DNA of 64,000 bases from an uncultured bacterium. Lineage in GTDB: Bacteria; Ratteibacteria; UBA8468; B48-G9; DSTR01. The notes beneath the pieces were generated by a model. It had not been told where the DNA came from. It ran no database searches and was given only the letters and a program-made list of their open reading frames with translations. The stretch is from the NCBI GenBank assembly GCA_964645405.1, contig CAZYCA010000044.1, positions 78,503 through 142,502 on the forward strand, written 5' to 3'. Below are positions 3,313 to 63,428 of the stretch, one piece after another. A program made the position numbers and the translations under genes. The number at the start of each line of letters is the position of its first letter. Within the stretch, counting starts at the first letter, position 1.

Positions 3313-3370
3313 TTGACAGAGGTAGCCGGTGTGTTTTATAATGATTCAATAAATGATTTGAATTCAATGC
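3313..3370 (+). promoter_or_regulatory. Near-consensus sigma70 promoter (TTGACA 3313-3318, 18-nt spacer, TATAAT 3337-3342) overlapped by Fur/PerR-box-like AATGATTYGAAT repeats and the palindrome TTGAATTCAA
   Basis: Read directly from the sequence: cTTGACAgaggtagccggtgtgtttTATAATgattcaataaatgatttgaattcaatg. It sits immediately upstream of the Fur-family gene, so an autoregulated operator is likely. Confidence 0.55.
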
Positions 3371-3408
3371 TGAAACTTATACATAGACGGAAAAATGAAG
3401 GATTTGAA

Positions 3409-3825
3409 ATGAACAAAGGTCAGATTATAGGAAAACTGGAAGGGAAGGGAATTCAGGCATCGTACCAGAGGATAAAAATACTGGAATATCTGATGAAAAA
3501 TAGAATTCATCCGACTGCTGATGATATCTACAAGGCTTTAAGAAATGAGATACCGACGCTTTCTAAAACGACGGTTTATAATACGCTAAAGACTTTGTTA
3601 GAAAAAAGAATTATTTTTATAGTTACAACAGAAGAGGATGAATTAAGGTATGACTGTGCTGGGGAGAACCATCTACATTTTAAGTGCAGGAGGTGCGGAG
3701 CTTTATATGATGTGTTTCATAAATGTGAGATTTTGAAACGCAGGGAGATACAAGGACATCTAATAGAAGAAAGCCACATATACCTTATCGGGGTATGTAA
3801 AAAATGCAGAAAGGAAAGTGCTTGA
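3409..3825 (+). CDS. perR: Fur-family transcriptional regulator, probably the peroxide sensor PerR
   Basis: 139 aa from the ATG at 3409 (RBS AAGGA 9 nt upstream). Winged-helix N-terminus, HxH metal site (HLHFKC), two CxxC pairs (CRRCG...CKKC). Heads an operon of peroxide/superoxide detoxification genes. The ORF-track start at 3313 coincides with the -35 box and is too long. Confidence 0.75.
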   Translation: MNKGQIIGKLEGKGIQASYQRIKILEYLMKNRIHPTADDIYKALRNEIPTLSKTTVYNTLKTLLEKRIIFIVTTEEDELRYDCAGENHLHFKCRRCGALYDVFHKCEILKRREIQGHLIEESHIYLIGVCKKCRKESA

Positions 3826-3841
3826 TTTAAGGAGGTGATTA

Positions 3842-4003
3842 ATGGATAGGTACATTTGTAAAGTGTGCGGATATGTGTACGACCCGGAGAAGGGAGACCC
3901 GGAAAACGGGGTGGCACCAGGTACAAGTTTTGAAAAACTTCCTGAGAAGTGGGTATGTCCTATCTGCGGGGCTGGAAAGAACATGTTTGAAAGGGAAGGT
4001 TAA
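3842..4003 (+). CDS. rub: Rubredoxin (53 aa). Absent from the supplied ORF track because it is under 60 aa
   Basis: Translates to [53 protein letters not shown], with the canonical CxxCG...CPxCG rubredoxin knuckles. RBS GGAGG 8 nt upstream. Confidence 0.85.
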
Positions 4004-4039
4004 AGGGATGACATGACCTAAAAAAGATGGGGGAAGACA

Positions 4040-4516
4040 ATGCCTGCAATTCTGGACATTCAAGATGTTTTGCAGTTTGCAGTAAAGATCGAGGAAAACG
4101 GAGAAAAATTCTACCGGACGGTAGCCCGGGCAATACGGGAGAAGGAAGTGGGAAAGCTGTTTAATTTTCTGGCAGAAGAAGAAGTACGACACGGAAAAAT
4201 TTTTGCGGAAATGCTGGAGAAAACAGGAAAACACCAAGTTCCTGAGACATATCCGGGTGAGTACTTCCAGTATCTGAAGGCCTATGTAGAAAATTTGATA
4301 TTTTCTTCCACGATGGAGAAACAACTGACCAACAGGGATGGGTTAATGAAAATTATGGACTTTGCTATAAGCAGGGAGCTGGATTCTATCACGTATTACC
4401 TGGAGACAAAACCTTTGGTACCTGAAATACAGCATGAGATTCTGGGCAGAATCATAGAAGAGGAGAGGGACCATTTTGTCCGTCTTTCCATCATGAAAGA
4501 AAAGATGGGAAAATGA
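4040..4516 (+). CDS. Ferritin-like diiron protein of the rubrerythrin family (no rubredoxin domain)
   Basis: 158 aa with paired E...ExxH diiron motifs (EEEVRHG and EEERDHF). RBS GATGGGGG. Lies inside the PerR operon. Confidence 0.6.
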
Positions 4517-4595
4517 AAGGCTGTTTCGGTCTGAAAGTTTTGAGATAAAGCAGAAGTATTACCGCGGTAATCAGTTAAACAAAAAAGGGGGGAAA

Positions 4596-5270
4596 ATGGA
4601 AGAAAAAGTAATGGCAAAGACAATGCCGCTTCTGGGGGATGACTTTCCGGAGATGAAGGTTCAGACCACGCAGGGAGTAATTGATTTACCCGGCCACTAC
4701 GCTGGGAAGTGGTTTGTTCTTTTCAGCCACCCGGCAGATTTTACACCTGTATGCACCACGGAATTTGTTGCTTTCCAGAAAAGATATGGGAAGTTCAAAG
4801 ATTTGAACTGTGAACTGATTGGGCTTAGTGTGGACCAGGTCTTTTCCCATATAAAGTGGGAAGAATGGATAAAGGAAAAGTTAGGAGTGGAGATTGAGTT
4901 TCCTATCATTGCAGATACCGGAGCGGTGGCAGAGACACTGGGTTTAATCCATCCGGGAAAGGGCAGCAATACTGTCCGGGCGGTCTTTGTAGTGGATGAG
5001 GCGGGTAAAATCAGGATTATCCTTTACTATCCTCAGGAACTCGGCAGGAATATGGAGGAAATACTGCGGGCGGTGAAGGCAATGCAGATATCTGACAAAT
5101 ATGGAGTGGCAATGCCGGCTAACTGGCCTGACAATGAGGTGATAAAGGACCATGTAATAATCCCGCCGGCCAGGGATGTGAGAACAGCAAAAGAAAGGCT
5201 GGAAAAAGCCAGAAAAGGTGAGTGGGAATGTTTTGACTGGTGGTTATGCCATAAGAAACTGCAAAAGTAG
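4596..5270 (+). CDS. 1-Cys peroxiredoxin (Prx6 subfamily thiol peroxidase)
   Basis: Peroxidatic-Cys motif FTPVCTTE. Total length is 224 aa (a C-terminal extension is typical of Prx6). RBS AGGGGGG precedes the ATG. Confidence 0.85.
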
Positions 5271-5320
5271 AAAATCCTGACAAAAAAGAATTTCAATTTC
5301 ATAGGAAAGGAGGTGAGAAA

Positions 5321-5845
5321 ATGGTTTATCTATGGAGATGCGAAATTTGCGGAGACCCCTATATCGGGGAAACCCCTCCCAGCAATTGTCCCTTCTGTGG
5401 TGCCCACTCCAGATACATTAAGCTGGCAACGCTGGCAGAGGTGACATTTGATGTGAATCTGGAGCTGCAGGATAGAGAAAATGCTGAACGTGCTCTTTCA
5501 GTGGAGGTAAGCAATTCCGCGTTTTATTTCTGCGCTGCAGAAAAGACTGATGATGCCGAGGGTAAACTTCTTTTTAAGGCGCTGGGCAAGGTGGAGGCTG
5601 AGCATGCAGCAATATGGAGGAAGATATTAAAGCTGGAATCCGTGCCCCAAGGCAAGGAGGTTTGCTCAACAAAAAACAGGGAGAACCTCAAAGAATCTCA
5701 CCAGCGGGAAACAAAGGCGATTGAATTCTACAGAAAAGCTGCCGGAGAAGCAAAAAACGCACGGATAAAAGAGATATTTGAGGCTCTGGTAGAGATTGAA
5801 ACTGACCATTTATATCTTTCCGAGGAGAGGATGAAAAATGACTAA
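5321..5845 (+). CDS. 'Reverse' rubrerythrin: N-terminal rubredoxin-like Cys4 domain followed by a ferritin-like diiron domain
   Basis: N-terminus [23 protein letters not shown] (CxxC...CxxC), then a four-helix diiron region with EAEHAA and ETDH. RBS GGAAAGGAGGTG. Confidence 0.7.
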
Positions 5846-6212
5846 AGTAAATCAAATTTACAGATGCAACGTATGCGGGAACATTGTGGTTGTTTTACAT
5901 GCGGGAGCAGGAGAGCTGGTTTGCTGTGGACAACCCATGGAATTACTTCCGGAAAAGACAGAAGATACAGGGAAAGAAAAACATGTGCCTGTGCTGGAGA
6001 AGACAGCTACCGGGATAAAAGTAAAAGTTGGTTCTGTCCCGCATCCCATGGAAGAAAAGCACCATATTGAATGGATTGAGATAATGGCTGACGGGTTCGT
6101 TGCCAGAAAATTCTTAAAGCCAGGGGACAAACCAGAGGCAGAGTTTGAGGTGCAGGCAGAAAACATTACCATTAGAGAATACTGCAATATCCACGGTTTG
6201 TGGAAGTCATAA
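5838..6212 (+). CDS. dfx: Desulfoferrodoxin (2Fe superoxide reductase)
   Basis: N-terminal desulforedoxin domain [12 protein letters not shown]...LVCCGQPM, then the SOR domain EKHVPV...H...CNIHGLW. It overlaps the preceding gene by 8 nt. Confidence 0.85.
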
Positions 6213-6369
6213 GTTTTTTATGGCTTCAGTCCAGGCGTTGATAGGGGAATGGTTCTGAATACTGCCCGGTGTATTTCTTATCCTCTCCGGGTAAGGTTGC
6301 TTTACGGAAGGATGGTTAGGTGTTTAAATATCAGTAATAAAGGAAACTACCTCTAACTGGAGGTAAAAG

Positions 6370-7194
6370 ATGGGTTTTCCTACCACAGAGGTTGGTGGTG
6401 TTACTCTTTCCCGGCTGATTTGTGGTACAAACTGGTTTCTTGGTTATTCTCACACCAGTGCCGCGAAAGATAAGTTTATCAGGGAGTTATTTCCTACCCC
6501 GGAGAAAATAGCAGCAGTAATTGAAGTTTTTGGACATCACGGTATTAACGCGGTTATGGGTCCTGCCAGTCCTCTCCTGGCAGAAGCCATTAAGATTGCC
6601 TGCGACCGGGTAGGTAAAAAAATACATTATGTCTGTACTCCCCATTATGAAGTGGGCAAACTGGATACCTGGCAGCAGGCGATAGACACAGCCATAAACT
6701 ACCAGGCTACTTTCTGTTTTCCGCACCAGTGTATGACTGACCCCCAGATAGACCTTGTCAGAAGAAGCCTTTCTGAAGAACTGCAGTTATGTTTGCAGAT
6801 GGTCAGGCAGGCAGGAATGATTCCAGGATTGAGCAGCCATACACCTCAGGCAATAGTTTGTGCGGATGCCTGCGGTGCTGATGTGGAAAGTTATATCCAG
6901 CCATATAATGCAGCTGGTTTTCTCTGCCAGGTAGAAACAGACTGGATAAGAAAAATTATTCTTCAGGCAAAAAAACCAGTCATGACCATTAAACCTCTTG
7001 CTGCGGGTCGGATCCTACCTCCTACCGGGTTGACATTTGTCTGGAATAGTATCCGGCCATGTGATTTAGTAACGATTGGTGTTGTTTCCCCGTATGAGGC
7101 GGAAGAGTGTATTGAACTGAGTCTTGCCTGTCTGGAAAAGCGGCCGGCAGAGGTAGAACTTCAGTTTACCAGAAGTAAGAAATCTCTTGTCTGA
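6370..7194 (+). CDS. Hypothetical Cys-rich protein (12 Cys in 274 aa). No family confidently recognised; there is a weak resemblance to an aldo-keto-reductase-like TIM barrel
   Basis: Long ORF with an RBS (GGAGGTAAAAGATG). Lies 157 nt downstream of dfx on the same strand. Contains CADAC and scattered Cys/His. Confidence 0.4.
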   Translation: MGFPTTEVGGVTLSRLICGTNWFLGYSHTSAAKDKFIRELFPTPEKIAAVIEVFGHHGINAVMGPASPLLAEAIKIACDRVGKKIHYVCTPHYEVGKLDTWQQAIDTAINYQATFCFPHQCMTDPQIDLVRRSLSEELQLCLQMVRQAGMIPGLSSHTPQAIVCADACGADVESYIQPYNAAGFLCQVETDWIRKIILQAKKPVMTIKPLAAGRILPPTGLTFVWNSIRPCDLVTIGVVSPYEAEECIELSLACLEKRPAEVELQFTRSKKSLV

Positions 7195-11930: not shown

Positions 11931-14900
11931 TTATTTTGCGCTGAGTTTTTCCTGTAACTGTTCAATGGCACTGGCTACTTTTTCCCGGCAGGCCAGAATA
12001 AGTTCATACGGCATGTTATAGTCATTCAAGGTTGGAAAAACATCATTCCAGATATTCTCCAGAATGTTTTGCGCTTTTTCTGCTTCTTTGTCCCATCCTT
12101 TTTCCTTTGCCTGAAGAATCATACTCCTTAAAAGATTTACATACCAGGCATCTTCCATCCCTTCCCTGATAATCTCCCATCTAATACTATCGACGGGCGA
12201 AGTGTCCACCCATCCTTTCCCTGGTTTTATCCAGGCAGGTTTCTCTGGATGCACAGGATACATTACGGAATTCCAGTGGCTATACCGGGAACGCCAGACT
12301 TCGTCATGGTCCTCCCAGCATTGTATTCCCCACCAGGAAATCAAATCAAGGTCATAACGAGCTGCCTGCCAGAGGTAACTGCGCCATTCTGAGGCTGGAG
12401 CAGAAACCGCAGTTTTTGGTGGAGGACCACAGTTGTACCAGGAAACCAGATCTCCTGCCTGCTTAGCCTTCTGGAAAAATGTACTGTTATGGAGCATGTA
12501 AAGAATCTGCCAGAGTTTAACAACACCCAGTCCTTTTTCTGCTTCCTGGTAATCAATGTTGTTAAAGGCAGTCATAAGAGGCATGCCAGCAGCTCTGGCT
12601 GCAGGAGTCAGTTTCTCCCACCAGTATTGAAAACCAGGTGGTTCATCACTTACTTTCAGAACAAACCGCTCCAGCCATCCTTTTCTGAGAAGGTGTTTTT
12701 TGAAAAGACCAATCATTTCCTCAGCATAGTAGTCAGCAATCCAGTGAACTCCTTCTCTTGATGTTTTTCCCTCAAACCTTTTAGGAAAAATTTTTTTGAA
12801 TTCTGAATGTTGTCTCCCCAGCAGCGCAAGTTCATAAAGCATATAACGAAGATTCCAGGGTTTTCCAGCCGCGTCAATGGTTTCCACCAGCCAGTCAAAG
12901 TAACTGGTATCTAAAGCTACAGTCCCATCATCATTAACTTCCAGCCAGTCAATATCCAGGTTTTTGTATTTCCCTTCCGGGCTGAAATGCCAGCGAAACA
13001 TTTCAGGAGGTCCCAGGTGGATAACTCTCATCCCGTGTTCTACAAGATTAATTACCAGGGATTCAATGTCCTGTTTCTTCAGTTCCCTTCTGGCATCAGG
13101 AGGAAACTGATTCAGGTGTATGTAGGGGTCACCACCCAACCCTTTCTCAGGAATGCTGAAATTGCGAACAGTCAGTTCCAGTGGAATGGTTTGTGAGACA
13201 TCATCTCCGGTGCAGGTTAAGGTGGAGTGGTAAACGCCAGGCTCAGCATTCTCAGATACTATTACTGTGAGCCAGAGCGCCTGGGTTTGCCCGGCATCCA
13301 GGGAGGAAACAGGTCTTTCCAGAAGCACATCAGGGTATCCTGTCCACCCTTTTTCCCAGCGGTCAGGTTCAACTGGATAATAGTAAACCCACCTTAACCA
13401 TAGAGGAGCATGTTTTTTTCTGAATGCTGTCTTATACCTTCTGTCAATTTCTTTACCTGTTTTTTCATGGACTAATGGGCTCAAAGTTACTTTCAGGTTT
13501 TTGATTTTCTGAAAAGCAGTAATGGCCAGTTGTTCTACCTCGTATTCACCTCTGGCTGCCTTCAAAGAAACTTTTTCTTTCTTTTCTTTGTGGGCTCTAC
13601 TGTAAGGATAGATTTTCCTGTCAGCACCGGCTACCCAGAAAATAAATCCTTCTGGTTCTTTTTTCTCTTTCAGGTAGTCGGTGATAAATTTTCTGGCTGC
13701 TTTCACAGTTCCAGAGGCATCACTGCCGGAAATCAGAAGTACCGATTCCTGGGTATCTTCGTAGTGGGGATAAAAAAGAATTGCACCCTTCCCCTTACCT
13801 GGCCAGGTAAGGCTCACGGAGTTTTTCCACCAGCCTATTTCTTTGACTACCTGGTTGGTTTCTGGATTTCCGATAATTAACAATTTGCCCCCGGGATTTG
13901 TCCAGGCTAGCCCAGCTCCTGTTTTTCTGGCAATAGTAATTGCCTGTTTTTTTTCCTCCGGGGAAGCCTCTGCAGAACAGTAAATGGTAAAATCACTTTC
14001 CTGAAGAAACTGGTCAATCTGTTTTTGCTGCTGCCTCTGGTAAACATCGGTTTTCACCGGTGGCAGATTCACCGGCTTTGTTTTGACTTCTATTTGACTG
14101 AGATTAAATTTTCCAGAAGAATCAACCTGGCCTATTGTTTTTCCAGCACTATCCACCGCCACAAGTTTCCAGTCAGAGTTGACCTGTGTTTTAATAATCA
14201 GGGTAGTGTCAGGACAGGCTCTATATTCAGCAATCCTGTTGCCTGTTTTTTCAACGACAAGTAACTTACCAGTAAAGAAAGGAATGATTTTCCCCTGGAG
14301 AAGATTTTGCTCACAAAAGAAAGGGTAAACAACAAGAAATAAAGGATTGATTCCATAAACCTTTTCCTTTACACCGGTGCAGGAGGACAAATAAACCTTT
14401 GTTTCCCAGGTATCTCCAGGCTTGAGCACCAGGGTTTTCAGGACCGGTTCCAGGGTGATTCCCGGACAGTTATAGAAACCAACAAGGGTTTTTTCCTCCA
14501 CCAGAAAACAGAGGGTGTCAGAACTGCTGCGGTTAACCCAGGCAGCCCAGTTTCCTTTCAAAACAGGTGTTGGAAGCTTTCCTGAGACCCAGTGCCGGGC
14601 TGGCTCATCCTTCCAGGAAGCGTTAAAAAATTTATCATTTTTGTATTTTTCTCTGTACTGCGTTAAATTTAGAGATTGATCCAGTTCCAGAATCCCTGCT
14701 TCTGTTTCCAGAAAAATGGTGTCATCCTTTTTTTGATATTTCCCTCTGGCACCAGGGCTGGCAGCGCTGTGAAGTCGCAGGGAAAAAGCAGAAACTTCCC
14801 CGCAAATGTTTTCTAATTTATAGCTCAGTTCAATAGTAGCCAGATCTCTTCTAAGGACCCATTTTTTTGTCAGCCGATAGGCTCCTTCACTTACCTGAAT

Positions 14901-15266
14901 CAAAACCGCGCCAGAACCATCCTGGTTTGTTCCATAAACTACGGGAATAAAAAGCCTTCCTGCCTGAGGTGCTTTACCCTGAAACTCTTTCCAGTTAACC
15001 GGGTCCCATTGCTCGCCCAGAAGATGTCCTCTGACATAATCTGTCTGTCCGTAAAGAACATCCACCATTTCATAGCCTGTGGATTTGAAAAACCAGGATA
15101 GAATACCCTGACTGCTACCCGGACGGCTGCTGATTTTAATATGGAGGAGACTGTTTTTTAGATTGACAGAACCATCAGGGTTAATTTTCACTTCCTGAGC
15201 CAGACCCGTTCTGGTAAGTGTTATTACCAGCAGGCAGAGAGAGATAAGCAGTCTTTTTCTTTCCAT
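11931..15266 (-). CDS. Giant secreted protein (1111 aa) with a C-terminal DUF4091/GH123-like (GH20-like D-E dyad) glycosidase module
   Basis: Signal peptide MERKRLLISLCLLVITLTRTGLAQ. C-terminal module with GVYHSTLTCTGDDVSQTIPLELTVRNFSIPE, then WLERFVLKVSDEPPG, then WYNCGPP...WWG. Paralogous to modules in the two genes described at 15280 and 22135. Confidence 0.6.
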   Translation of the reverse strand: MERKRLLISLCLLVITLTRTGLAQEVKINPDGSVNLKNSLLHIKISSRPGSSQGILSWFFKSTGYEMVDVLYGQTDYVRGHLLGEQWDPVNWKEFQGKAPQAGRLFIPVVYGTNQDGSGAVLIQVSEGAYRLTKKWVLRRDLATIELSYKLENICGEVSAFSLRLHSAASPGARGKYQKKDDTIFLETEAGILELDQSLNLTQYREKYKNDKFFNASWKDEPARHWVSGKLPTPVLKGNWAAWVNRSSSDTLCFLVEEKTLVGFYNCPGITLEPVLKTLVLKPGDTWETKVYLSSCTGVKEKVYGINPLFLVVYPFFCEQNLLQGKIIPFFTGKLLVVEKTGNRIAEYRACPDTTLIIKTQVNSDWKLVAVDSAGKTIGQVDSSGKFNLSQIEVKTKPVNLPPVKTDVYQRQQQKQIDQFLQESDFTIYCSAEASPEEKKQAITIARKTGAGLAWTNPGGKLLIIGNPETNQVVKEIGWWKNSVSLTWPGKGKGAILFYPHYEDTQESVLLISGSDASGTVKAARKFITDYLKEKKEPEGFIFWVAGADRKIYPYSRAHKEKKEKVSLKAARGEYEVEQLAITAFQKIKNLKVTLSPLVHEKTGKEIDRRYKTAFRKKHAPLWLRWVYYYPVEPDRWEKGWTGYPDVLLERPVSSLDAGQTQALWLTVIVSENAEPGVYHSTLTCTGDDVSQTIPLELTVRNFSIPEKGLGGDPYIHLNQFPPDARRELKKQDIESLVINLVEHGMRVIHLGPPEMFRWHFSPEGKYKNLDIDWLEVNDDGTVALDTSYFDWLVETIDAAGKPWNLRYMLYELALLGRQHSEFKKIFPKRFEGKTSREGVHWIADYYAEEMIGLFKKHLLRKGWLERFVLKVSDEPPGFQYWWEKLTPAARAAGMPLMTAFNNIDYQEAEKGLGVVKLWQILYMLHNSTFFQKAKQAGDLVSWYNCGPPPKTAVSAPASEWRSYLWQAARYDLDLISWWGIQCWEDHDEVWRSRYSHWNSVMYPVHPEKPAWIKPGKGWVDTSPVDSIRWEIIREGMEDAWYVNLLRSMILQAKEKGWDKEAEKAQNILENIWNDVFPTLNDYNMPYELILACREKVASAIEQLQEKLSAK

Positions 15267-15279
15267 CTTCCCCCCATTT

Positions 15280-18200
15280 TTAATGAGTAATGCTTTCCAT
15301 GAGAGCTTTTCTCAGAGCAGTTTTTACTGTCTGAAAACGTTCTGGTGTGATATTGTAAAAACTCTGTCTCTCCCCTTCAGGAGCCAGTACTGGTGCAACC
15401 ATTTCTTTCAGTTTTTCCTGTCCCAGTCTCTCTTTAACCAGGAAAAGGAGTTTAATGTCCTCCTGTGCCTGGCGGAAAAGTTCCAGTCTCTGGGAACCAA
15501 TAATTCTCTTTTCAGAAGCATCAGGATAAAAAACTGTGGTCCCACCAGGCCAGCCACCTGGATAATCAGTGTTAGCGTAAACATCAAAGACAAAATGGTC
15601 CCTCAGTTCTACAACCCCTTTCCCGCCTAACTCTCCACCGGACCACATATGACTCCAGTATCCACCACCATAATAAACAGCTCCGTCACACCCTTTCAGG
15701 AAACTGTCCCAGAGAAAAAAACGAATCTGGGTGGGAGTAGTCCGCAAATCAGCATAAGGTGCTCCACCCTTGCAGGTGTAATTCCAGACAACCTCACCCT
15801 CTTTTTTTCTTTCCTGAAGAAACTTCTGACTGAAAATGGTTGGTTCCTCCTCAGACATTGTCCTGCCGTAACGAGTAACCAGGAAAATCCAGTTAGGGCA
15901 CCAGATATTGATGGTACCAATCATTTTCTCTATCTCCTTCCTGCTGGTTCTGTTATGGCAAACTGTTACCGGTAGCCCTGCTCTGCGGAAAAAAGAAGCT
16001 GCTTTCACCCAGGCATCCATATCTGCCGGTTCATCTCCCACCCGCACATAAAGCCGGTCACGATAATCCTTATTTTTTAAAGAAGCAGCCAGAGAATCAG
16101 CCAGAAGATTAAATGCCTCTTCCTCTGTGAGATTAAGTTTTTTCATCATTGTTCTGGCTACAGGCAAAAGATTATTTGGATGCCCTACGATTTCAAAACG
16201 TCCGGAAAAGCCAGCCTTTTGATAAGCAGAAATGACTTTTTCCATCCCGGTTAAATCCCAGCACGGCATTCCTTTCTCCTTGAGGAAACATTCCAGACCA
16301 TACAAACCCCAGCCACTTCCAGCTACTGTAGCCACAGTAACTCCGTGAGAAGAGAAAAGTTTCCCCAGTTGAAAGAGTGCTTTTTCATAACAGGGCTCAT
16401 CAGGTTTTAAATTCAGGTAAAGAGCAAGACTGTTTTCCCGGTAAGAATAAAGTCCGTACATCAGGTTCAAATCCATCACCCAGCCAGAGGGTAAAACTAC
16501 TGGTAAGACATTCATTTCTACAGGTATCTGGAAAGAACTATCTGCACAGTCAATCTGTATCTTTCCCTGATAAAGACCGGGTACTGCAGAATCAGGAATC
16601 AGAAAATTGAACCAGAGGGAAAGGTAACTTTCTGCCGGGACCTGGTCAGGTATTCCTGGCCACAGGGCATCATTATTCGGTTCCGGACAGACATAAACAG
16701 GCCTTTTTTCTTCAGGAATATTTAGAGGATAGGTTGGTGCTCTGTGAGGTAAAGGATGCCCGATGAGGTAAATACTTCTTGCTGCAGGATAAACAGTGCC
16801 GTCAGAATCCAGCAAGGGAAATGTCCAGTAGATATGAGAAATTTCAGACTCTATTCTTGAATTGTTTGCGTTTTTAAGGGTTACCTGCACCCGGATAATT
16901 TTTTGTTTTTCCGGGAAAAAAAGAAGAAGGTGAACTGGTTCTACTTGTCCCTGACAGGCAGTAATATGGACTTTTTCAGGTTTAGACCTTCTCATCCATG
17001 GTCTTACCCTCATTTCTGGAGAGAGAAGACGAACCTGGGGACAGGTTATGGGTTTTAAATGGAAATGCTGGATAAGATATTCCGTCGCCAGTTTTACTCC
17101 GGAAATATCCTGGCCACCAGCATAAATTACAGGAAGCCCGGTTTTTAGAAAATCAGGAATGAGAACAATTCTACCTTTCTCTGGTCCTGGATAATAGCAG
17201 TCCACAAAGCCATATCCCGGGTTATTCGCCCCTACCACAGTATTTTCTTCAGGTGTACCCACCAGAATGAGTAAAAGGTTCTCACACTGGTAGGTTGGAT
17301 ACTGGGTGTTAAGAAAATTACTGAAGTTTTTAGCGGTAAGCAAAGGAGACTGAAATGCTTTTGCCAGTTTCTCAGCACAATAGAGACTACTTTTACTCAT
17401 TTTATCTCCGCTTAGAATAGCAATGTCCATCTCCTGGAGAAGTTTTGATATTTTGTTTCTGTCTGTAGCAGTGATGGCTACCCTGCCGGAAAAAACTTCT
17501 CTCTCTTTAACATAATGCGGAGCCAGAAAATCTGTCTGAAACTTCAGGTAGTCTTTTTCCCCGAAAGAAACGTCCTCAGGTAGTTGTGGATAAAGTGTTA
17601 ATCTCATTCTCAGGGAAACAGGTTTGCCAGCAGTATATTCTGTCCCGAACTGGTGGGGATTGATGTAGTTAGATTTTTCATTGAAGTTCCATATCCACCA
17701 TTGCAGTCCGGAACGATAGGCACCAGCTTCACCTTTTTTAGCACCAAAACTGCTTTTCAGGTCATCGCAGACATAAGAGAAAGCAGAAACCTTTCCTGCA
17801 ACGGCTGACCAGCAGCAACCTGTATTTTGCTGACTTTTGGCAGGAATGCCAAAAACAACAGAGACGGGTTTTCTGGTTTTTACATCTAAGGAATGTACCA
17901 GCCAGGTTTCTGTGGTGGTATCTACCACCAGTTGTCCTGTTCCGCAGATATAAAGACTGCCGTTTTGCTCAGGGACAAAAAGGGTCTCCAGATCTATCAT
18001 CGGTGATTGCCGGTAGATAGAGATTTTACTTTTTGTTGTCCCCGGGATGATTTCCACGTTCTGGTATCTGAGCTGTGACTTTCCAGTAATTAACAAAGTC
18101 GTCCTGAATGGTCCAGAGATTATCCTGATATCTGGTTTGCCCTGAAAAAAACCCAAATGGAACCCCTCTATGGAACTGACTCCTGTCTTCTGCCCGTTCC

Positions 18201-18654
18201 TGTAACGGAACTCTGTCAGTCTTCCTTTGACTAGTCCTTCTTTATCCGGTTCCCCGAGATAAAACAAGCAGGAAAAAATCTCATTGGAGAAAAAATATTT
18301 TTTCCCTTTTTCCATTTCTGCCAGGGTAGGTCCAGGTGAAAACTCATTTTTGACTGGCAGCAGTTTTACCCTTTTTCTCTCCTTGGGGTTCAAATCAACC
18401 AGGCCCACAATTTCTGTTTCCTCTGACGAAAAAACATCAATTTGTACAGGCAGGCTGACTTTTTCCTTAAGAGGGAAATTGCTGGTTTTTTCTGCAGCAG
18501 ACTTCACCTGTAAAACTACTGGTTGACCGCATACTGGAAAATCAAAGGGGTTGTAAAGGATAAATTCTTTCTCCTGGTTATTCCGGGCAATTCCAGGGGA
18601 AAGGAGAAAAAGATAGAGGGAAAAGGTCAGAAAGTACTTCTTTTCTCCTTTCAT
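15280..18654 (-). CDS. Giant secreted protein (1124 aa) with a DUF4091/GH123-like module
   Basis: Signal peptide MKGEKKYFLTFSLYLFLLSPGIARN. Module with GLYQGKIQIDCADSSFQIPVEMNVLPVVLPSG, then LYVRVGDEPADMDAW, then WNYTCKGG...GGGYWSHMW...FYPD. Confidence 0.6.
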   Translation of the reverse strand: MKGEKKYFLTFSLYLFLLSPGIARNNQEKEFILYNPFDFPVCGQPVVLQVKSAAEKTSNFPLKEKVSLPVQIDVFSSEETEIVGLVDLNPKERKRVKLLPVKNEFSPGPTLAEMEKGKKYFFSNEIFSCLFYLGEPDKEGLVKGRLTEFRYRNGQKTGVSSIEGFHLGFFQGKPDIRIISGPFRTTLLITGKSQLRYQNVEIIPGTTKSKISIYRQSPMIDLETLFVPEQNGSLYICGTGQLVVDTTTETWLVHSLDVKTRKPVSVVFGIPAKSQQNTGCCWSAVAGKVSAFSYVCDDLKSSFGAKKGEAGAYRSGLQWWIWNFNEKSNYINPHQFGTEYTAGKPVSLRMRLTLYPQLPEDVSFGEKDYLKFQTDFLAPHYVKEREVFSGRVAITATDRNKISKLLQEMDIAILSGDKMSKSSLYCAEKLAKAFQSPLLTAKNFSNFLNTQYPTYQCENLLLILVGTPEENTVVGANNPGYGFVDCYYPGPEKGRIVLIPDFLKTGLPVIYAGGQDISGVKLATEYLIQHFHLKPITCPQVRLLSPEMRVRPWMRRSKPEKVHITACQGQVEPVHLLLFFPEKQKIIRVQVTLKNANNSRIESEISHIYWTFPLLDSDGTVYPAARSIYLIGHPLPHRAPTYPLNIPEEKRPVYVCPEPNNDALWPGIPDQVPAESYLSLWFNFLIPDSAVPGLYQGKIQIDCADSSFQIPVEMNVLPVVLPSGWVMDLNLMYGLYSYRENSLALYLNLKPDEPCYEKALFQLGKLFSSHGVTVATVAGSGWGLYGLECFLKEKGMPCWDLTGMEKVISAYQKAGFSGRFEIVGHPNNLLPVARTMMKKLNLTEEEAFNLLADSLAASLKNKDYRDRLYVRVGDEPADMDAWVKAASFFRRAGLPVTVCHNRTSRKEIEKMIGTINIWCPNWIFLVTRYGRTMSEEEPTIFSQKFLQERKKEGEVVWNYTCKGGAPYADLRTTPTQIRFFLWDSFLKGCDGAVYYGGGYWSHMWSGGELGGKGVVELRDHFVFDVYANTDYPGGWPGGTTVFYPDASEKRIIGSQRLELFRQAQEDIKLLFLVKERLGQEKLKEMVAPVLAPEGERQSFYNITPERFQTVKTALRKALMESITH

Positions 18655-18670
18655 GGGCAGTTTTCCCTTA

Positions 18671-21600
18671 TCATCTCTGAGTTACCCAGAGATTTTGTAA
18701 TCTGATTGACGGAGAAGAAACTTTTTTCATTTCAGTGCCATAGACCAGACGGTCTCTCATCTCCAGAATTAACCTTTGCAAAACAAGGGGGAAATCCATT
18801 ATTCCGTCTCCACCTTCATACTTCCAGTTTCTATCTCTTGGGCCGTGGTAACCACCAGGGTAGCGACAAGGAAATCCCAGACGGATATTACACCAGCCAT
18901 CAAAGTTGATATAGGTTTGACTTTCCCAGTCTGAGACATTCCACCTGTCTGGTTCATAGCCGATAGAAATCCAGCGCTCTCCTTTGGCATCTTTAAACTC
19001 CCAGATGACCCGGCTCCAGCTACTGTTTCCCTTAATTACGAGCCCACAGGAATCTGCTGCAGTAGGTACAAGAATAGTCTTCTTTGGTTTTAAAATCAGA
19101 TACCGGGGACAGACAGCTGGGATCTCTGGCTGTGGCAGAAGAGTTACTTCTGTTACCGGTCCTTTCTTCTCGTCAAATACAGCGGAAATTGTACCTTTAC
19201 CAGCCCGGGCAGGATTGTCAAAGGCGTTTGTCTCCAGTTCCTCATCCGTTTCTGTCAGAAGCTGCCAGGATTCTGGTGAAGAAAAACTGTCTAAAATATA
19301 TACCTTTGCAGGAAGACTATCATCCAGGAAACTTTCACCTGCAGTAACAGAAACTACCTTTTCCGGACATATCAGATAGCCAGGCATGGCAGATACCTTT
19401 ATTGATACTGGCTGGTTATCAATTTTAACAGGGGTAACATTTCCCATACTGTCTATGAAGGTACTCTGGCACTGCCTTGCTGACTTGATTAACACCTGCC
19501 TTTCCCCTCTTAAAGTCCAGACAGCCAGGATTGTTTCTTTCCCGCGCTGGAACTGGAAAGCATAGAGACTGGTAGAACCTGTGTCCCATGCTTGCTGGTA
19601 TTTAGCCTGGTCCAGAACCCGGGTCAAAGTAGCCATCGCCACATAAGAAATTTTGGGGTATAAGAGAGGGTTTCTCATAAGGAAACCACTGGCACCATAG
19701 ATGGTGTAATAATAAGAATCAGCTACATCTTCCAGTAAACCGATATTAATACTGGGCATACCATAAGCCAGGGCATGGAGAGCATCTCTGACATAATAGG
19801 CAGCCTGGTCTTTCCAGGAAAGTGCACCAGGTTGGGTACAGCGGCAAATCCATTCAAAACCGGAAGAAACAGGTATGTCCTGGTAACCATAAATTTTTTT
19901 CATTTCCTGAAGCCACCAGACTTCCTGAAAGTTTCCTAATTCTGGTTGTCTTTCTGGCATTTTCCAGGCTGAAACTCCTTCTATACCAAAAGCATCAATA
20001 TACTCTTTCGGAAATTTTGCCCGCATAAACTGGATCATCAGAGGAGAGCTACTGTTACCAAAAGTAATTTTTACTCCAGGAAGTTTTTCCCGGTATAACC
20101 TGGCTGCTTCCAATGCCTGCTGCCAGAGTTTCTGGAATCTCTCGTTTTCTTCAGGTGTAAGTTCTGGTGCTGGTAGATTAAGAAGTTCCGGATAAAACAT
20201 CTGAGTCAGCCTGCCGGAAATACCTGTTTCATGGAAAATCATCGCCCATCTGACATGAGGATGTTTTGTAAAAAAAGTATTAACGATTTCCTCTCTCCTG
20301 GTTCCATACCAGGGAGCCATGGAATAGGAAAGTTTGTACTTAGCCAGTTGTTCACCAGAAAAATTTTTCCATCCTGAAGGACAGATGTGACGTATACCCA
20401 TCTTCTGGAGAAGCGGACCAACAGTATCAAGGGAGGCACAACCACCATGAGTACTACCAAACCACCAGACCCCAAAGGGTGATTCCAGACCAGCCTTTCT
20501 GGTATCGGCAGGAAGCAAGGCATAGAAAAAAGGTTCTTCCCAGATTTTTTCTCCTTCTTTATTTTTAATGGTTATTCTTGCCTGAAACCAGCCAGGATTT
20601 TTCTGACTTAAGTCCACTTCTATGATGTTATCGTTTTTTTCCGGGGAAGCTGGCAGAAAAACAGGAATATTTCTGGTTGTCTTCTGGTTATAGAAATCTT
20701 CTGTAGTCAGAATGAGGGAACCGGAGAAAGGAATCTTCTGATTGTTTTTCAAAATGACCTGGAGAGAAGGTTTTTTCTCATCCGCAAAGATAAAATCTCC
20801 ATGTTTTGTCCTGAGCTTTACTTCTACTGGACTTTCTTTCAGGGTCAGAGCCAGAACATGTACACTGCTGGGTAGTCCTAAAGGTTTAAGGGAACAGTTC
20901 TGGTAAGCGAAAAAATGGACAGCGGTACGAATCTCTTTTGTAAGTTCCAGATCCAGAAAATCACCTTCCCGGCCAAACTTGGGGAAATTGTCTCCCAGTA
21001 AATCAGAAATCTGACCTGCTGGTAAATCTACAGAAACAAGCCATAAAGGGATTTGGACTTCCTTTTTTCCCAGTATAATAGTAGCCTGTCCGGCTTTGCG
21101 GATATTTTCTGATGGTGACTGGGAATCCTCAGGGAGATAAACAACAGTGTCAGCAAAGGCATCACCTCGACCACCGCTATCCCCGTAGTGGTTACCAAAA
21201 CGGGTTAACCGCAGTCCCAGGGCCGGTACCTTATTCTTATTCGGCTCTACCAGGCAAAGAAGGTAAGCCTTCTGGTAAAAACGCTTTGGAATTCTGAAGA
21301 TGATACTTTCCGGATTGCCATCAAAGGCACTTCTGGTAGTATAGTTGTCGCAGAAGTCTGCCGGGTCAATACCCTCTTCCAGCCACCGGGAGAGGCCAAC
21401 GTCAATGTGCTTGTTCCAGGCAGCCACCTTCAGGGGAATACTGGAAAAGGTATCTTCCTGGATATTGAGGAACTTTAATTCCAGGCTACCTGGCCGGCCA
21501 TAATACTCAATTTCTAAAGGAAGAAAATCATTTTGTCTGATAGTTTTTTTCTTCTGAAAACCGATAATAAGACATCCCGGGGAAACTTCTAACAAGGTAG

Positions 21601-30540: not shown

Positions 30541-30575
30541 TTTCTCGTGGTAAAGAAGTTTTTTGGAGGAGGGGA

Positions 30576-63364: not shown

Positions 63365-63428
63365 AATATCCTCTGCCCAGACCTTGGGTATTGACAGGGA
63401 AAAGATAAAGAAGGTATAATCACACAAA

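What the first reader, a model, noticed from the sequence alone, without database searches (positions are those of the whole stretch)
3313..6212. PerR-headed six-gene oxygen/ROS detoxification operon typical of strict anaerobes
A consensus-like promoter overlapped by Fur-box-like repeats drives perR, then rubredoxin, a rubrerythrin-like diiron protein, 1-Cys peroxiredoxin, 'reverse' rubrerythrin and desulfoferrodoxin. All are tightly spaced on one strand, with an 8-nt overlap at 5838-5845. Superoxide reductase plus rubredoxin and rubrerythrins, with no SOD or catalase in the window, is the classical anaerobe solution. It marks the organism as an obligate or aerotolerant anaerobe, consistent with a gut, sediment or anoxic marine PVC lineage.
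Basis: partly seen in the sequence, partly recalled or inferred. Interest (0 to 1): 0.5.

Follow-up and report, generated by a model that had tools for sequence, protein, structure and literature searches.

The report
PerR-controlled anaerobe oxidative-stress operon
This is an ordinary six-gene operon of an uncultured PVC-group (Omnitrophota-like) bacterium, in which a peroxide-sensing PerR-type repressor probably controls rubredoxin, two diiron proteins, a peroxiredoxin and a superoxide reductase; it is a new example of a well-known anaerobe defence, not a new kind of system.

Summary
Six co-directional genes lie behind a perfect sigma-70 promoter (TTGACA-18-TATAAT, 3313-3342):
- a Fur-family regulator (true start ATG 3409, not TTG 3313)
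- rubredoxin
- a rubredoxin-less rubrerythrin-family diiron protein (TM1526-like)
- a Prx6-subfamily peroxiredoxin
- an N-terminal-rubredoxin ("reverse") rubrerythrin
- a 2Fe desulfoferrodoxin

The 8-nt overlap at 5838-5845 is real.

The regulator is PerR-like, not Fur or Zur. Its best solved relatives are PerRs. All five regulatory ligands and the Cys4 zinc site of B. subtilis PerR are kept, including the PerR-diagnostic Asp. In 50 of 82 independent genomes, homologues sit next to rubredoxin, SOR, Prx or rubrerythrin-like genes.

A 7-1-7 PerR-box-like site (TTATAATGATTCAAT, 3336-3350) overlaps the -10. It is the best intergenic match in the window to a box recurring upstream of homologues.

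The prx-revRbr-dfx part matches DPANN-archaeal clusters at 64-73% identity.

No SOD or catalase lies in the window, but that says little about the whole genome. The PVC affiliation is supported; strict anaerobiosis is only plausible.

Verdict: a new member of a known kind, of low interest.

The parts
3313..3342 (+). Sigma-70-type promoter: -35 TTGACA (3313-3318), 18-nt spacer, -10 TATAAT (3337-3342). The predicted transcription start is near 3349-3350.
   Evidence: It matches 12 of 12 positions. It is one of only two perfect matches in the 64 kb. It is 30/30 identical in sister species L007, even though a different gene lies upstream there. Homologous clusters L009, L012 and L014 also have TTGACA-N16/17-TATAAT.
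3336..3350 (.). Candidate PerR operator: the 7-1-7 element TTATAAT-G-ATTCAAT, overlapping the -10 hexamer.
   Evidence: It matches 11 of 14 positions of the B. subtilis PerR box. It ranks 2nd of about 64,000 positions under a weight matrix built from boxes upstream of 28 homologous regulators; the only better hit is intragenic. In L012, L009 and L014 the same register relative to the -10 holds 12-13 of 14 matches. The right half is degenerate (4 of 7) and differs in L007.
3345..3368 (.). AT-rich leader element: second AATGATT core (3352-3358), inverted repeat ATTCAA-N8-TTGAAT, palindrome TTGAATTCAA (3358-3367). It may be a second regulator contact.
   Evidence: The block 3345-3368 is 100% identical in L007, against 81-91% identity at third codon positions. 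It scores poorly with the family weight matrix (-3.0). By my estimate, palindromes of this size are expected by chance.
3409..3825 (+). perR-like Fur-family repressor, 138 aa.
   Evidence: PF01475, 82.6 bits. The best PDB hit is 2fe3, B. subtilis PerR, E 5.5e-22, followed by three more PerRs. H34, D82, H88, H90 and D101 match B. subtilis H37, D85, H91, H93 and D104; C93, C96, C130 and C133 form the Zn site.
3842..4003 (+). Rubredoxin, 53 aa (CxxCG ... CPxCG).
   Evidence: PF00301, 90 bits. NF045768, 102 bits, above its cutoff of 90. An AGGAGG ribosome-binding site precedes it.
4040..4516 (+). Rubredoxin-less rubrerythrin-family (ferritin-like diiron-carboxylate) protein, 158 aa.
   Evidence: PF02915, 48.7 bits. 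The best PDB hit is 1vjx, TM1526 'putative ferritin-like diiron-carboxylate protein', E 2e-13. The motif E...ExxH occurs twice in the sequence. Homologues sit in the perR clusters of L010 and L013, and a true ferritin occupies that slot in L009.
4596..5270 (+). Prx6-subfamily peroxiredoxin, 224 aa. The peroxidatic Cys53 lies in FTPVCTTE; the C-terminal pair is C212/C218 (CFDWWLC).
   Evidence: NF009668, 369 bits, above its cutoff of 211. The best PDB hits are archaeal Prx 6itz, 3w6g and 2cv4, E 1e-79 to 1e-85, with the CxDWWxC motif aligned.
5321..5845 (+). 'Reverse' rubrerythrin, 174 aa: an N-terminal Cys4 rubredoxin-like ribbon followed by a diiron four-helix bundle.
   Evidence: RUBY_RBDX at residues 5-30 (31 bits) and Rubrerythrin at 53-165 (34 bits). 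The family invariants are C7, C10, C23, C26, E62, E92, H95, E130, E160 and H163. The AF2 model has pLDDT 94.5: a beta ribbon plus four helices. Foldseek gives ferritin-like bundles with TM about 0.6.
5838..6212 (+). Desulfoferrodoxin (2Fe superoxide reductase), 124 aa. It overlaps the preceding gene by 8 nt.
   Evidence: TIGR00320, 218.7 bits, above its cutoff of 146.9. 1dfx, E 7e-49. The centre I cysteines (C10, C13, C29, C30) and centre II ligands (H49, H69, H75, C116, H119) fall in identical alignment columns (ligand list from my own knowledge).
6203..6227 (+). A 10-bp hairpin spanning the dfx stop codon, with no U-tail. It may be a weak 3' end or a stability element.
   Evidence: RNA fold. 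The stem is conserved in L007. It is not a canonical intrinsic terminator, and the fold z-score of the whole gap is not significant.

Best explanation
This is an autoregulated, peroxide-inducible oxidative-stress operon of an uncultured Omnitrophota-like (PVC) bacterium.

Repression (inferred). Under reducing conditions, a dimer of the PerR-type repressor sits on a 7-1-7 box that overlaps the -10 hexamer of a consensus sigma-70 promoter. The dimer carries a structural Zn(Cys)4 site and a regulatory Fe2+ or Mn2+ bound by H34, D82, H88, H90 and D101. Binding there blocks RNA polymerase.

Induction (inferred). H2O2 reacts with the bound Fe2+ and oxidises His34 or His88, as in B. subtilis PerR. 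The repressor falls off, and one polycistronic mRNA (about 3350 to 6212 or beyond) is made.

Enzymes (shown as family membership; activities inferred from those families):
- Desulfoferrodoxin reduces superoxide to H2O2 with electrons from rubredoxin.
- The reverse rubrerythrin, and probably the rubredoxin-less diiron protein, reduce H2O2 to water.
- The peroxiredoxin removes H2O2 and organic peroxides through Cys53. It is recycled through its C-terminal cysteines by a thioredoxin-type system.

NADH:rubredoxin oxidoreductase and thioredoxin reductase are not in the window and must be encoded elsewhere.

Shown: gene identities, ligand conservation, promoter, gene spacing, conservation of the cluster, association of the regulator clade with such genes.
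Inferred: peroxide sensing, operator position, co-transcription, enzyme activities.
For: Gene families all score above curated cutoffs, except the regulator at equivalog level.

Regulator:
- PerRs are the four best solved relatives.
- PerR models are the best NCBIfam hits for it and for all 32 clade members.
- The PerR ligand set is conserved, with Asp at the Asp104 position (PMC4866751).
- 50 of 82 independent genomic loci with a homologous regulator carry a rubredoxin, SOR, Prx or rubrerythrin-like gene within 3.5 kb on the same strand.
- Homologues at 54-66% identity (L009, L010, L012, L013) lie in ogg-perR-rd clusters. In L009, L010 and L013 these run on through a flavodiiron-like gene to SOR.

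Operator:
- Boxes within 2 mismatches of TTATAATNATTATAA are about fivefold enriched just upstream of the homologues: 36 of 78 hits, against about 7 expected.
- They show a recurrent TTGTAATnATTACAA palindrome.
- The window's site at 3336 is the best intergenic hit.

Operon:
- One perfect promoter, strong ribosome-binding sites, short gaps and an 8-nt overlap.
- No internal promoter or terminator in the scan, apart from a 9/12 match inside perR that is not conserved in L007.
- The same six genes and promoter occur in sister species L007, although a different gene lies upstream there.

Precedents: C. difficile rbr-perR-rbo (bioRxiv 10.1101/2024.09.17.613384); D. vulgaris perR-rbr-rdl and Geobacter perR-rbr-roo, the latter with a box over the -10 (PMC545781).
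Against: - The regulator scores below the curated cutoffs of every NCBIfam PerR equivalog model (99 bits against 180).
- The operator's right half matches only 4 of 7 positions. It changes in the sister species.
- The only close comparison, L007, is too similar (81-91% at third codon positions) for a real phylogenetic footprint.
- The 79-nt gap before prx coincides with a seam between two evolutionary modules, so a second promoter there cannot be excluded.
- No clear terminator follows dfx, so the 3' end of the unit is undefined.
- No reductase for rubredoxin or for the Prx is in the window.
- The fold search cannot separate peroxidase from ferroxidase function for the diiron proteins.
Confidence: 0.8

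Rival explanations
1. The regulator is a metal sensor (Fur-, Mur- or Irr-like). It switches the cluster according to iron or manganese supply rather than sensing peroxide. The iron-rich enzymes and a ferritin-like protein would then be an iron-sparing or iron-storage regulon.
For: It belongs to the Fur family and is below every PerR equivalog cutoff. Fur proteins share three of the five ligands (PMC4866751). Gene 3 is ferritin-like, and a true ferritin occupies its slot in L009. The Thermotogae-type PerR model that it matches is described as manganese-dependent.
Against: Asp, not Glu, occupies the Asp104 position, and His at the His37 position is invariant across the clade. Fur and Zur models score far lower: 46 and 24 bits against 99. 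Neighbouring genes in 50 of 82 loci are ROS enzymes, and I noticed no iron-uptake genes in the loci I annotated. No iron-uptake genes lie nearby in the window.
Confidence: 0.1
2. The six genes form two transcription units joined by evolution: perR-rd-rbrL under the PerR-controlled promoter, and prx-revRbr-dfx with its own non-consensus promoter in the 79-nt gap (4517-4595).
For: The largest gap lies exactly at the seam. prx-revRbr-dfx recurs as a block, in the same order and at 64-73% identity, in DPANN archaea and Saganbacteria without a perR. perR-rd-(fprA)-rbrL-sor is the pattern in the regulator's closest relatives.
Against: The scan finds no promoter-like or terminator-like site in the gap. 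The gap has no significant structure. The gap is no better conserved than coding third positions. The genes share a strand, and a strong ribosome-binding site precedes prx.
Confidence: 0.12
3. One or both diiron proteins (4040-4516 and 5321-5845) are not peroxidases. They could act as ferroxidase or iron-sequestering proteins, or as O2 reductases. That would protect by removing Fenton-active iron, as Dps/MrgA does in other PerR regulons.
For: Structural neighbours of the revRbr model are ferritins and bacterioferritins, not specifically rubrerythrins. TM1526 has no assigned function. NCBI names homologues 'ferritin family protein'. Ferritin replaces gene 3 in L009.
Against: Both pass the Pfam Rubrerythrin threshold. 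The fused rubredoxin-like Cys4 domain is an electron-entry module typical of peroxide- or O2-reducing rubrerythrins (PMC5114695). The revRbr gene is translationally coupled to the H2O2-producing SOR.
Confidence: 0.2

Closest known systems
Clostridioides difficile rbr-perR-rbo(-gltD) operon (bioRxiv 10.1101/2024.09.17.613384)
   Same: An autoregulated PerR operon behind a canonical sigma-A promoter, with a PerR box close to the promoter. It encodes a rubrerythrin and a desulfoferrodoxin that together take superoxide to water.
   Different: perR is the second gene there, not the first. The rubrerythrin is canonical (C-terminal rubredoxin domain). There is no separate rubredoxin, peroxiredoxin or rubredoxin-less diiron protein. 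A reductase with a rubredoxin domain (GltD) is attached there; none is present here.
Desulfovibrio vulgaris perR-rbr-rdl and Geobacter perR-rbr-roo operons (predicted; PMC545781)
   Same: perR-headed operons with rubrerythrin and a rubredoxin-type carrier in Gram-negative anaerobes. In Geobacter the candidate box overlaps the -10.
   Different: They have three genes rather than six. The predicted operators differ in sequence from the one here and from the B. subtilis box. They include no SOR or Prx.
Bacillus subtilis PerR (PDB 2fe3, 3f8n) and its box TTATAATNATTATAA
   Same: It is the best solved relative (E 5.5e-22). All five regulatory ligands and four zinc cysteines are conserved. The operator candidate matches 11 of 14 box positions.
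   Different: Identity is modest, and the protein is below the PerR equivalog cutoffs. The regulon here consists of anaerobe enzymes, not catalase, AhpCF or MrgA. The clade's own consensus appears to be TTGTAATnATTACAA.
ogg-perR-rd-flavodiiron-(ferritin or rubrerythrin-like)-SOR clusters of Omnitrophota and related MAGs (L009 = GCA_023819225.1, L010, L013; L012 is cut short after the flavodiiron-like ORF)
   Same: They hold the closest regulator homologues (54-66% identity), rubredoxin immediately downstream of perR, and a consensus promoter with the box over the -10. In L010 and L013 the same rubrerythrin-like gene follows.
   Different: They start with an 8-oxoguanine glycosylase gene. They carry a flavodiiron-like O2/NO reductase and a 1Fe SOR instead of reverse rubrerythrin plus 2Fe desulfoferrodoxin. 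Thioredoxin reductase and a glutaredoxin-like gene are attached. I found no paper describing them.
DPANN-archaeal grx-prx-(87-aa EncFtn-like)-revRbr-desulforedoxin-FeSOD clusters (L092, L093) and the Saganbacteria revRbr-dfx cluster (L094)
   Same: The order prx, revRbr, dfx or its N-domain is the same. Identities are 64-67% (Prx), 72-73% (revRbr) and 60-68% (Dfx or its N-terminal domain).
   Different: There is an AsnC-type regulator instead of PerR. A 42-aa desulforedoxin stands alone in place of the full Dfx. An Fe-SOD is present.
Archaeal Prx6-subfamily peroxiredoxins (A. pernix ApTPx 2cv4; P. horikoshii 3w6g; T. kodakarensis 6itz)
   Same: E-values are 1e-79 to 1e-85. The peroxidatic Cys lies in FTPVCTTE and the C-terminal CxDWWxC pair is conserved. 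In ApTPx that pair takes part in catalysis through a Cys50-Cys213 disulfide reduced by Trx and TrxR (PMC7465337).
   Different: The host is bacterial. The oligomeric state and the reductant are unknown, and no Trx or TrxR gene lies nearby in the window.

Membership tests
PerR (peroxide-sensing Fur-family repressor) | Fur-family winged-helix plus dimerisation domain | tested here: met
   PF01475, 82.6 bits against a cutoff of 23.1.
PerR (peroxide-sensing Fur-family repressor) | Structural Zn(Cys)4 site made of two CxxC motifs | tested here: met
   C93, C96, C130 and C133 align to B. subtilis C96, C99, C136 and C139. They are invariant in 32 homologues.
PerR (peroxide-sensing Fur-family repressor) | Regulatory site His37, Asp85, His91, His93, Asp104, with Asp (not the Glu of Fur) at position 104 and His37 present (absent in Zur) | tested here: met
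   H34, D82, H88, H90 and D101 occupy these positions in a gap-free alignment to 2fe3. H34, H88 and H90 are invariant and D101 nearly so. The criterion is from PMC4866751.
PerR (peroxide-sensing Fur-family repressor) | Closer in sequence to PerR than to Fur, Zur or Irr | tested here: met
   The PDB ranking starts with 2fe3, 4i7h, 6dk4 and 5nl9. Two are labelled PerR in the output; I identify 6dk4 (C. jejuni) and 5nl9 (Leptospira) as PerRs from my own knowledge. NCBIfam scores: PerR 99 and 72.5 bits, Fur at most 46, Zur 24. All 32 clade members hit PerR models at 1e-15 or better. No tree with reference sequences was built.
PerR (peroxide-sensing Fur-family repressor) | Score above a curated PerR equivalog cutoff | tested here: not met
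   99 bits against 180 (Clostridia-type model); 72.5 against 200 (Thermotogae-type model). These models are lineage-specific.
PerR (peroxide-sensing Fur-family repressor) | A 7-1-7 PerR box at the regulated promoter | tested here: inconclusive
   TTATAATGATTCAAT over the -10 matches 11 of 14 positions and is the best intergenic weight-matrix hit. The right half is degenerate, it is not conserved in L007, and the box is not enriched over shuffles.
PerR (peroxide-sensing Fur-family repressor) | Genomic association with peroxide and superoxide defence genes | tested here: met
   50 of 82 independent loci show it.
PerR (peroxide-sensing Fur-family repressor) | Fe-catalysed His oxidation by H2O2 that releases the DNA | not testable with these tools
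   This needs purified protein, an EMSA and mass spectrometry.
Desulfoferrodoxin (2Fe superoxide reductase) | An N-terminal desulforedoxin-like Fe(Cys)4 domain plus a C-terminal Fe(His)4Cys domain, with all ligands present | tested here: met
   PF06397 and PF01880 both hit. TIGR00320 scores 218.7 against a cutoff of 146.9. The alignment to 1dfx (E 7e-49) has the ligand columns identical.
Reverse-type rubrerythrin | A rubredoxin-like Cys4 domain N-terminal to the diiron four-helix bundle | tested here: met
   Pfam domain order. C7, C10, C23 and C26 are invariant. The AF2 model at pLDDT 94.5 shows a ribbon followed by four helices.
Reverse-type rubrerythrin | Diiron carboxylate ligands (E, ExxH, twice) | tested here: met
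   E62, E92/H95, E130 and E160/H163 are invariant in 26 homologues.
Reverse-type rubrerythrin | Same clade as the characterised clostridial reverse rubrerythrins (group 2 of PMC5114695) | not tested
   No reference sequence was available to me. Only weak hits (22-26 bits) appeared to rubrerythrin-like ORFs in Clostridia and other loci.
Reverse-type rubrerythrin | NAD(P)H- or rubredoxin-dependent H2O2 (or O2) reductase activity | not testable with these tools
   This needs an enzyme assay.
Prx6-subfamily ('1-Cys') peroxiredoxin, archaeal three-Cys type | PVCTTE active-site motif, 1-cysPrx_C domain, C-terminal CxDWWxC pair | tested here: met
   Cys53, Cys212 and Cys218 are present, and the six-residue spacing matches ApTPx C207/C213 (PMC7465337).
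Rubredoxin | About 50 aa, two CxxC knuckles, score above the equivalog cutoff | tested here: met
   NF045768, 102.4 bits against 90. CKVCG and CPICG are present.
Single operon | Same strand, short gaps or overlap, one promoter, no internal terminator, arrangement conserved | tested here: met
Single operon | One transcript | not testable with these tools
   This needs RNA-seq or RT-PCR.

The most novel reading that the evidence does not exclude
The right half of the operon (prx-revRbr-dfx) may be a cross-domain mobile antioxidant cassette. It would circulate between DPANN archaea and small-celled or candidate-phylum bacteria (Omnitrophota-like, Saganbacteria). Here it would have been docked behind a resident perR-rd-rbrL unit, so that an archaeal-type module came under bacterial PerR control. 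The 172-aa reverse rubrerythrin, with two further invariant cysteines (C71, C115) and 72-77% identity across domains, would be its unusually constrained core enzyme.
Probability: 0.35. Interest if true: 0.4.

Novelty: new member of a known kind. Interest (0 to 1): 0.2.

Why it matters
This gives a clean, fully parsed example of the rubredoxin / SOR / rubrerythrin / Prx defence under PerR-type control in an uncultured PVC-group (Omnitrophota-like) lineage, for which I found no published description.

Practical by-products:
- The public gene call for the regulator swallows its own promoter. The true start is 96 nt downstream.
- The regulator clade appears to use a TTGTAATnATTACAA / TTATAATnATTATAA box, which could be used to predict PerR regulons in many uncultured anaerobes.
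- The prx-revRbr-dfx block is shared with DPANN archaea at high identity, which hints at horizontal exchange of oxidative-stress modules.

None of this changes current understanding of how anaerobes handle oxygen.

Tried and rejected
1. It is not enriched in the window, and the first copy is not conserved in L007.
2. A phylogenetic footprint with L007. The two species are too close (81-91% at third positions) for more than a weak statement.
3. A second PerR-box-like site with a 9/12 promoter inside perR (3595-3628). It is not conserved in L007, so it is chance.
4. The best weight-matrix hit at 55689. It is intragenic in a 217-aa ORF, so it is chance.
5. The palindrome TTACCGCGGTAA in the rbrL-prx gap. 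It is broken in L007 and forms no significant fold.
6. An intrinsic terminator after dfx. There is only an A/U-rich hairpin without a U-tail.
7. Rfam scan of the whole window: no match.
8. Identifying the source organism. The exact proteins occur in JGI, ENA, Logan and NCBI assemblies without names.
9. The 274-aa downstream ORF. It has no Pfam, NCBIfam or PDB match, even with a profile. The single-sequence AF2 model was useless at pLDDT 38.
10. The fold search could not tell rubrerythrin from ferritin for gene 5.

Full report
WHAT IS THERE

Region 3313-6212 holds six + strand ORFs.
- The regulator is Fur family (PF01475, 82.6 bits).
- Gene 2 is a canonical 53-aa rubredoxin (NF045768, 102 bits, above cutoff).
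- Gene 3 is a 158-aa rubrerythrin-family protein with no rubredoxin domain. Its best solved relative is the uncharacterised Thermotoga protein TM1526 (1vjx, E 2e-13).
- Gene 4 is a peroxiredoxin with the 1-cysPrx_C domain (NF009668, 369 bits).
- Gene 5 has a rubredoxin-like Cys4 ribbon at residues 5-30, then a Rubrerythrin domain at 53-165. This is the 'reverse' order.
- Gene 6 is a two-domain desulfoferrodoxin (TIGR00320, 218.7 bits). It aligns to 1dfx at E 7e-49 with all metal-ligand columns identical.

Gaps between the genes are 16, 36, 79 and 50 nt. The last two genes overlap by 8 nt (ATGACTAA, 5838-5845), and Shine-Dalgarno sequences precede each start.

One correction concerns the regulator's start. 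The ORF lister and the public JGI gene calls (170 aa) begin it at TTG 3313. That TTG is the first base of the -35 hexamer. Homologues are 133-143 aa long and align from ATG 3409, which has GAAGGA 6 nt upstream.

PROMOTER

TTGACA (3313-3318), 18 nt, TATAAT (3337-3342) matches 12 of 12 positions. Only two perfect matches exist in the 64 kb, whereas base composition predicts about 0.05 by my estimate.

In a sister species (L007; regulator 85% identical) an extra 447-aa hydrolase-like gene lies between the upstream peptidase gene and perR. Even so, the 30 nt from -35 to -10 are identical and sit directly upstream of perR. The promoter therefore travels with the operon.

The scan found no other promoter-like site in the operon, apart from a 9/12 match inside perR that is not conserved in L007. 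It also found no terminator between the genes.

After dfx there is only a conserved 10-bp A/U-rich hairpin across the stop codon, with no U-tail (6203-6227). The 3' boundary is therefore not defined. Read-through into the 274-aa ORF and the GH38 gene downstream is possible.

IS THE REGULATOR A PerR?

Five lines of evidence favour PerR:
- The four best solved relatives are B. subtilis PerR (E 5.5e-22), S. pyogenes PerR, and the entries 6dk4 and 5nl9. I know the last two as the C. jejuni and Leptospira PerRs. Fur and Zur structures follow at E 1e-9 or worse.
- NCBIfam ranks two PerR models first (99 and 72.5 bits). Fur reaches at most 46 bits and Zur 24.
- All 32 members of the clade hit the PerR models at 1e-15 or better. 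Six hit a Fur model and none hit Zur.
- The alignment to 2fe3 has no gaps through residue 101. It puts H34, D82, H88, H90 and D101 on B. subtilis H37, D85, H91, H93 and D104, and C93, C96, C130 and C133 on the zinc cysteines. These residues are invariant or nearly so in the clade.
- PMC4866751 states that Fur proteins carry Glu at the Asp104 position, and that Zur lacks the His37 ligand and uses a Cys near position 84. This protein has the PerR pattern.

The one formal failure is that it scores below the curated cutoffs of the lineage-specific PerR equivalog models.

GENOMIC ASSOCIATION

A scan of one genome per species returned 80 loci with homologous regulators at 43-66% identity. All come from lineages I know as anaerobic or microaerophilic, among them Fusobacteria, Spirochaetes, Cloacimonadota, Clostridia, Bacteroidales and ANME-1.

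In 50 of 82 independent loci, at least one homologue of the window's rubredoxin, SOR, Prx or rubrerythrin-like genes lies within 3.5 kb on the same strand. This is a lower bound, because my queries detect canonical rubrerythrins poorly.

Four close regulator homologues (54-66% identity: L009, an Omnitrophica MAG; L010; L012; L013) lie in ogg-perR-rd clusters. L009 and L010 are annotated in full and continue with:
- a flavodiiron-like gene
- a ferritin or rubrerythrin-like gene
- a 1Fe SOR
- further on, a glutaredoxin-like gene, thioredoxin reductase and more rubrerythrins (plus a Prx in L009)

L013 shows the same run as far as the SOR. L012 is cut short by the end of its contig.

OPERATOR

With two mismatches allowed it is found less often than in shuffles (8 against 15.2). 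The B. subtilis box with three mismatches is likewise at chance level in the window (2 against 3.0).

The comparative picture is clearer. Across 83 loci (1.0 Mb), 78 sites lie within two mismatches of TTATAATNATTATAA. Of these, 36 fall between -1000 and +60 of the regulator ORF, where about 7 are expected. Many of them are the perfect palindrome TTGTAATnATTACAA, located 5-50 nt upstream.

In L012 (TTATAATTATTATAT), L009 (GTATAATGATTATAT) and L014 (GTATAATTATTACAA), the box overlaps the -10 of a TTGACA-N16/17-TATAAT promoter. That is the same register as the window's TTATAATGATTCAAT.

A weight matrix built from 28 such sites ranks 3336-3350 second of about 64,000 positions in the window. The only better hit lies inside a coding region. 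The left half of the site is also the -10 hexamer, so it counts twice. The right half is poor (4 of 7) and changes in L007.

The downstream block 3345-3368 holds a second AATGATT core and the palindrome TTGAATTCAA. It is identical in L007 but scores badly with the matrix.

I therefore place the operator over the -10 with moderate confidence. The role of the leader element remains open.

THE ENZYMES

The Prx is closest to the archaeal Prx6-subfamily enzymes of Thermococcus, Pyrococcus and Aeropyrum (E 1e-79 to 1e-85). It keeps both the peroxidatic Cys (C53) and the C-terminal CxDWWxC pair (C212, C218). In A. pernix all three cysteines matter, and a Cys50-Cys213 disulfide is reduced by Trx and TrxR (PMC7465337). 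'1-Cys' is thus the subfamily name rather than the likely mechanism.

Gene 5 belongs to a remarkably conserved family of about 172 aa. Its best 120 database relatives are 69-92% identical (all but the sister-species copy at 69-80%), and the named ones include Nanoarchaeia, Aenigmatarchaeota, Hadesarchaea, Hydrothermarchaeota and Saganbacteria. The Cys4 site, the six diiron ligands and two further cysteines are invariant. The AF2 model (pLDDT 94.5) is a ribbon plus a four-helix bundle. Its structural neighbours are generic ferritin-like bundles. The fold is confirmed, but peroxidase function is inferred from family and context.

MODULAR ORIGIN

In two DPANN-type archaeal genomes the cluster reads: glutaredoxin-like, Prx, an 87-aa EncFtn-like protein, revRbr, a 42-aa desulforedoxin, Fe-SOD. 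In a Saganbacteria MAG it reads: revRbr, Dfx, a flavin reductase-rubredoxin fusion, Rbr.

Identities to the window proteins are 64-67% (Prx), 72-73% (revRbr) and 60-68% (Dfx or its N-terminal domain). The window's largest intergenic gap (79 nt) lies exactly where this block meets perR-rd-rbrL.

The operon therefore looks like two modules joined together, the second shared across domains. This is the most interesting aspect, but it rests on a few loci and no trees.

ORGANISM AND LIFESTYLE

The window also encodes a DUF1559 + N_methyl protein pair, a sulfatase, four GH123-like giants, a GH38, a 2,936-aa GH94 protein, DnaG and RpoD. The nearest named RpoD relatives are Candidatus Omnitrophica (82%, then 65-68%) and Ratteibacteria (about 65%). 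NCBI places Omnitrophota in the PVC group. The exact proteins occur on metagenome contigs of up to 389 kb, without names.

The Pfam survey of the 44 non-overlapping ORFs of at least 90 aa found no SOD, catalase, NROR, thioredoxin or thioredoxin reductase. Signature regular expressions over all six frames found no SOD or catalase.

That result is true but weak, since 64 kb is a small part of the genome. The archaeal clusters above combine the same module with an Fe-SOD. An anaerobic or microaerotolerant lifestyle is the sensible guess. It is not demonstrated.

COMPARISON WITH KNOWN SYSTEMS AND VERDICT

Published precedents:
- PerR-containing operons with rubrerythrin and desulfoferrodoxin are experimentally established in C. 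difficile (rbr-perR-rbo-gltD; bioRxiv 10.1101/2024.09.17.613384).
- perR-headed operons have been predicted in Desulfovibrio (perR-rbr-rdl) and Geobacter (perR-rbr-roo, with the box over the -10) (PMC545781).

Reverse-type and rubredoxin-less rubrerythrins are recognised groups (PMC5114695).

Three things here are specific to this locus: the six-gene composition, the lineage, and the joined-module architecture. I found no paper describing such clusters in Omnitrophota.

This is a new member of a known kind.

Noticed in passing
window 6370-7194 (+): A 274-aa ORF lies 157 nt after dfx and 29 nt before a GH38 mannosidase gene. It has no Pfam, NCBIfam or PDB match, even with a 22-sequence profile. 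It belongs to an uncharacterised family: 574 cluster representatives at E up to 1e-3, with none of 10 tested members hitting Pfam. Conserved G, N, H and K residues and weak profile hits to RuBisCO chains and a designed protein (E 0.003-0.25) make an alpha/beta barrel only a guess. The single-sequence AF2 model was unusable (pLDDT 38). No terminator or promoter separates it from the ROS operon.
   Followed up: partly
window 3313-3408; L001-L004 and L007 gene calls: Public gene calls start the regulator at TTG 3313 (170 aa; 164 aa in L007). This turns the -35 box, the -10 box, the operator and the leader into coding sequence. The family alignment and the ribosome-binding site put the start at ATG 3409 (138 aa).
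   Followed up: yes
L092 3713-6282; L093 3739-6607; L094 5001-7225: DPANN-type archaeal and Saganbacteria loci carry prx / revRbr / desulforedoxin-or-Dfx blocks that are 60-73% identical to the window's genes and in the same order. In the archaea these sit next to an Fe-SOD, an 87-aa EncFtn-like protein and a divergent AsnC-type regulator.
   Followed up: partly
window 63391-63420 (+): The second perfect TTGACA-18-TATAAT in the window ends 8 nt before ATG 63429 of an ORF with no Pfam match that runs into the end of the window. The mRNA would have a very short leader or none.
   Followed up: no
window 55689-55703: The best match in the window to the regulator-clade box (TTGTAATGATTTCAC) lies inside the coding region of a 217-aa ORF without a Pfam family (55258-55911, - strand). 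It is probably chance.
   Followed up: partly
window 11931-27108 (-) and 30537-39347 (+): There is a run of four very large proteins (1,111-1,657 aa). Three have weak GH123 catalytic-domain hits and one has no family. A 2,936-aa GH94/glucoamylase-domain protein follows further on. A DUF1559 + N_methyl pair and a GntR/LacI-type regulator lie between them. This looks like a large glycan-degradation locus typical of PVC bacteria.
   Followed up: no
window 5321-5845 (residues C71 and C115): Besides the rubredoxin-like Cys4 site, two further cysteines are invariant across 26 homologues of the reverse rubrerythrin from bacteria and archaea. Their role is unknown.
   Followed up: no
L009 7330-7371; L012 about 4715-4760: In the Omnitrophica-type clusters the consensus promoter with its box sits only a few nucleotides before the annotated start of the first gene (ogg). 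Either the mRNA is leaderless or the start codon is mis-called.
   Followed up: no
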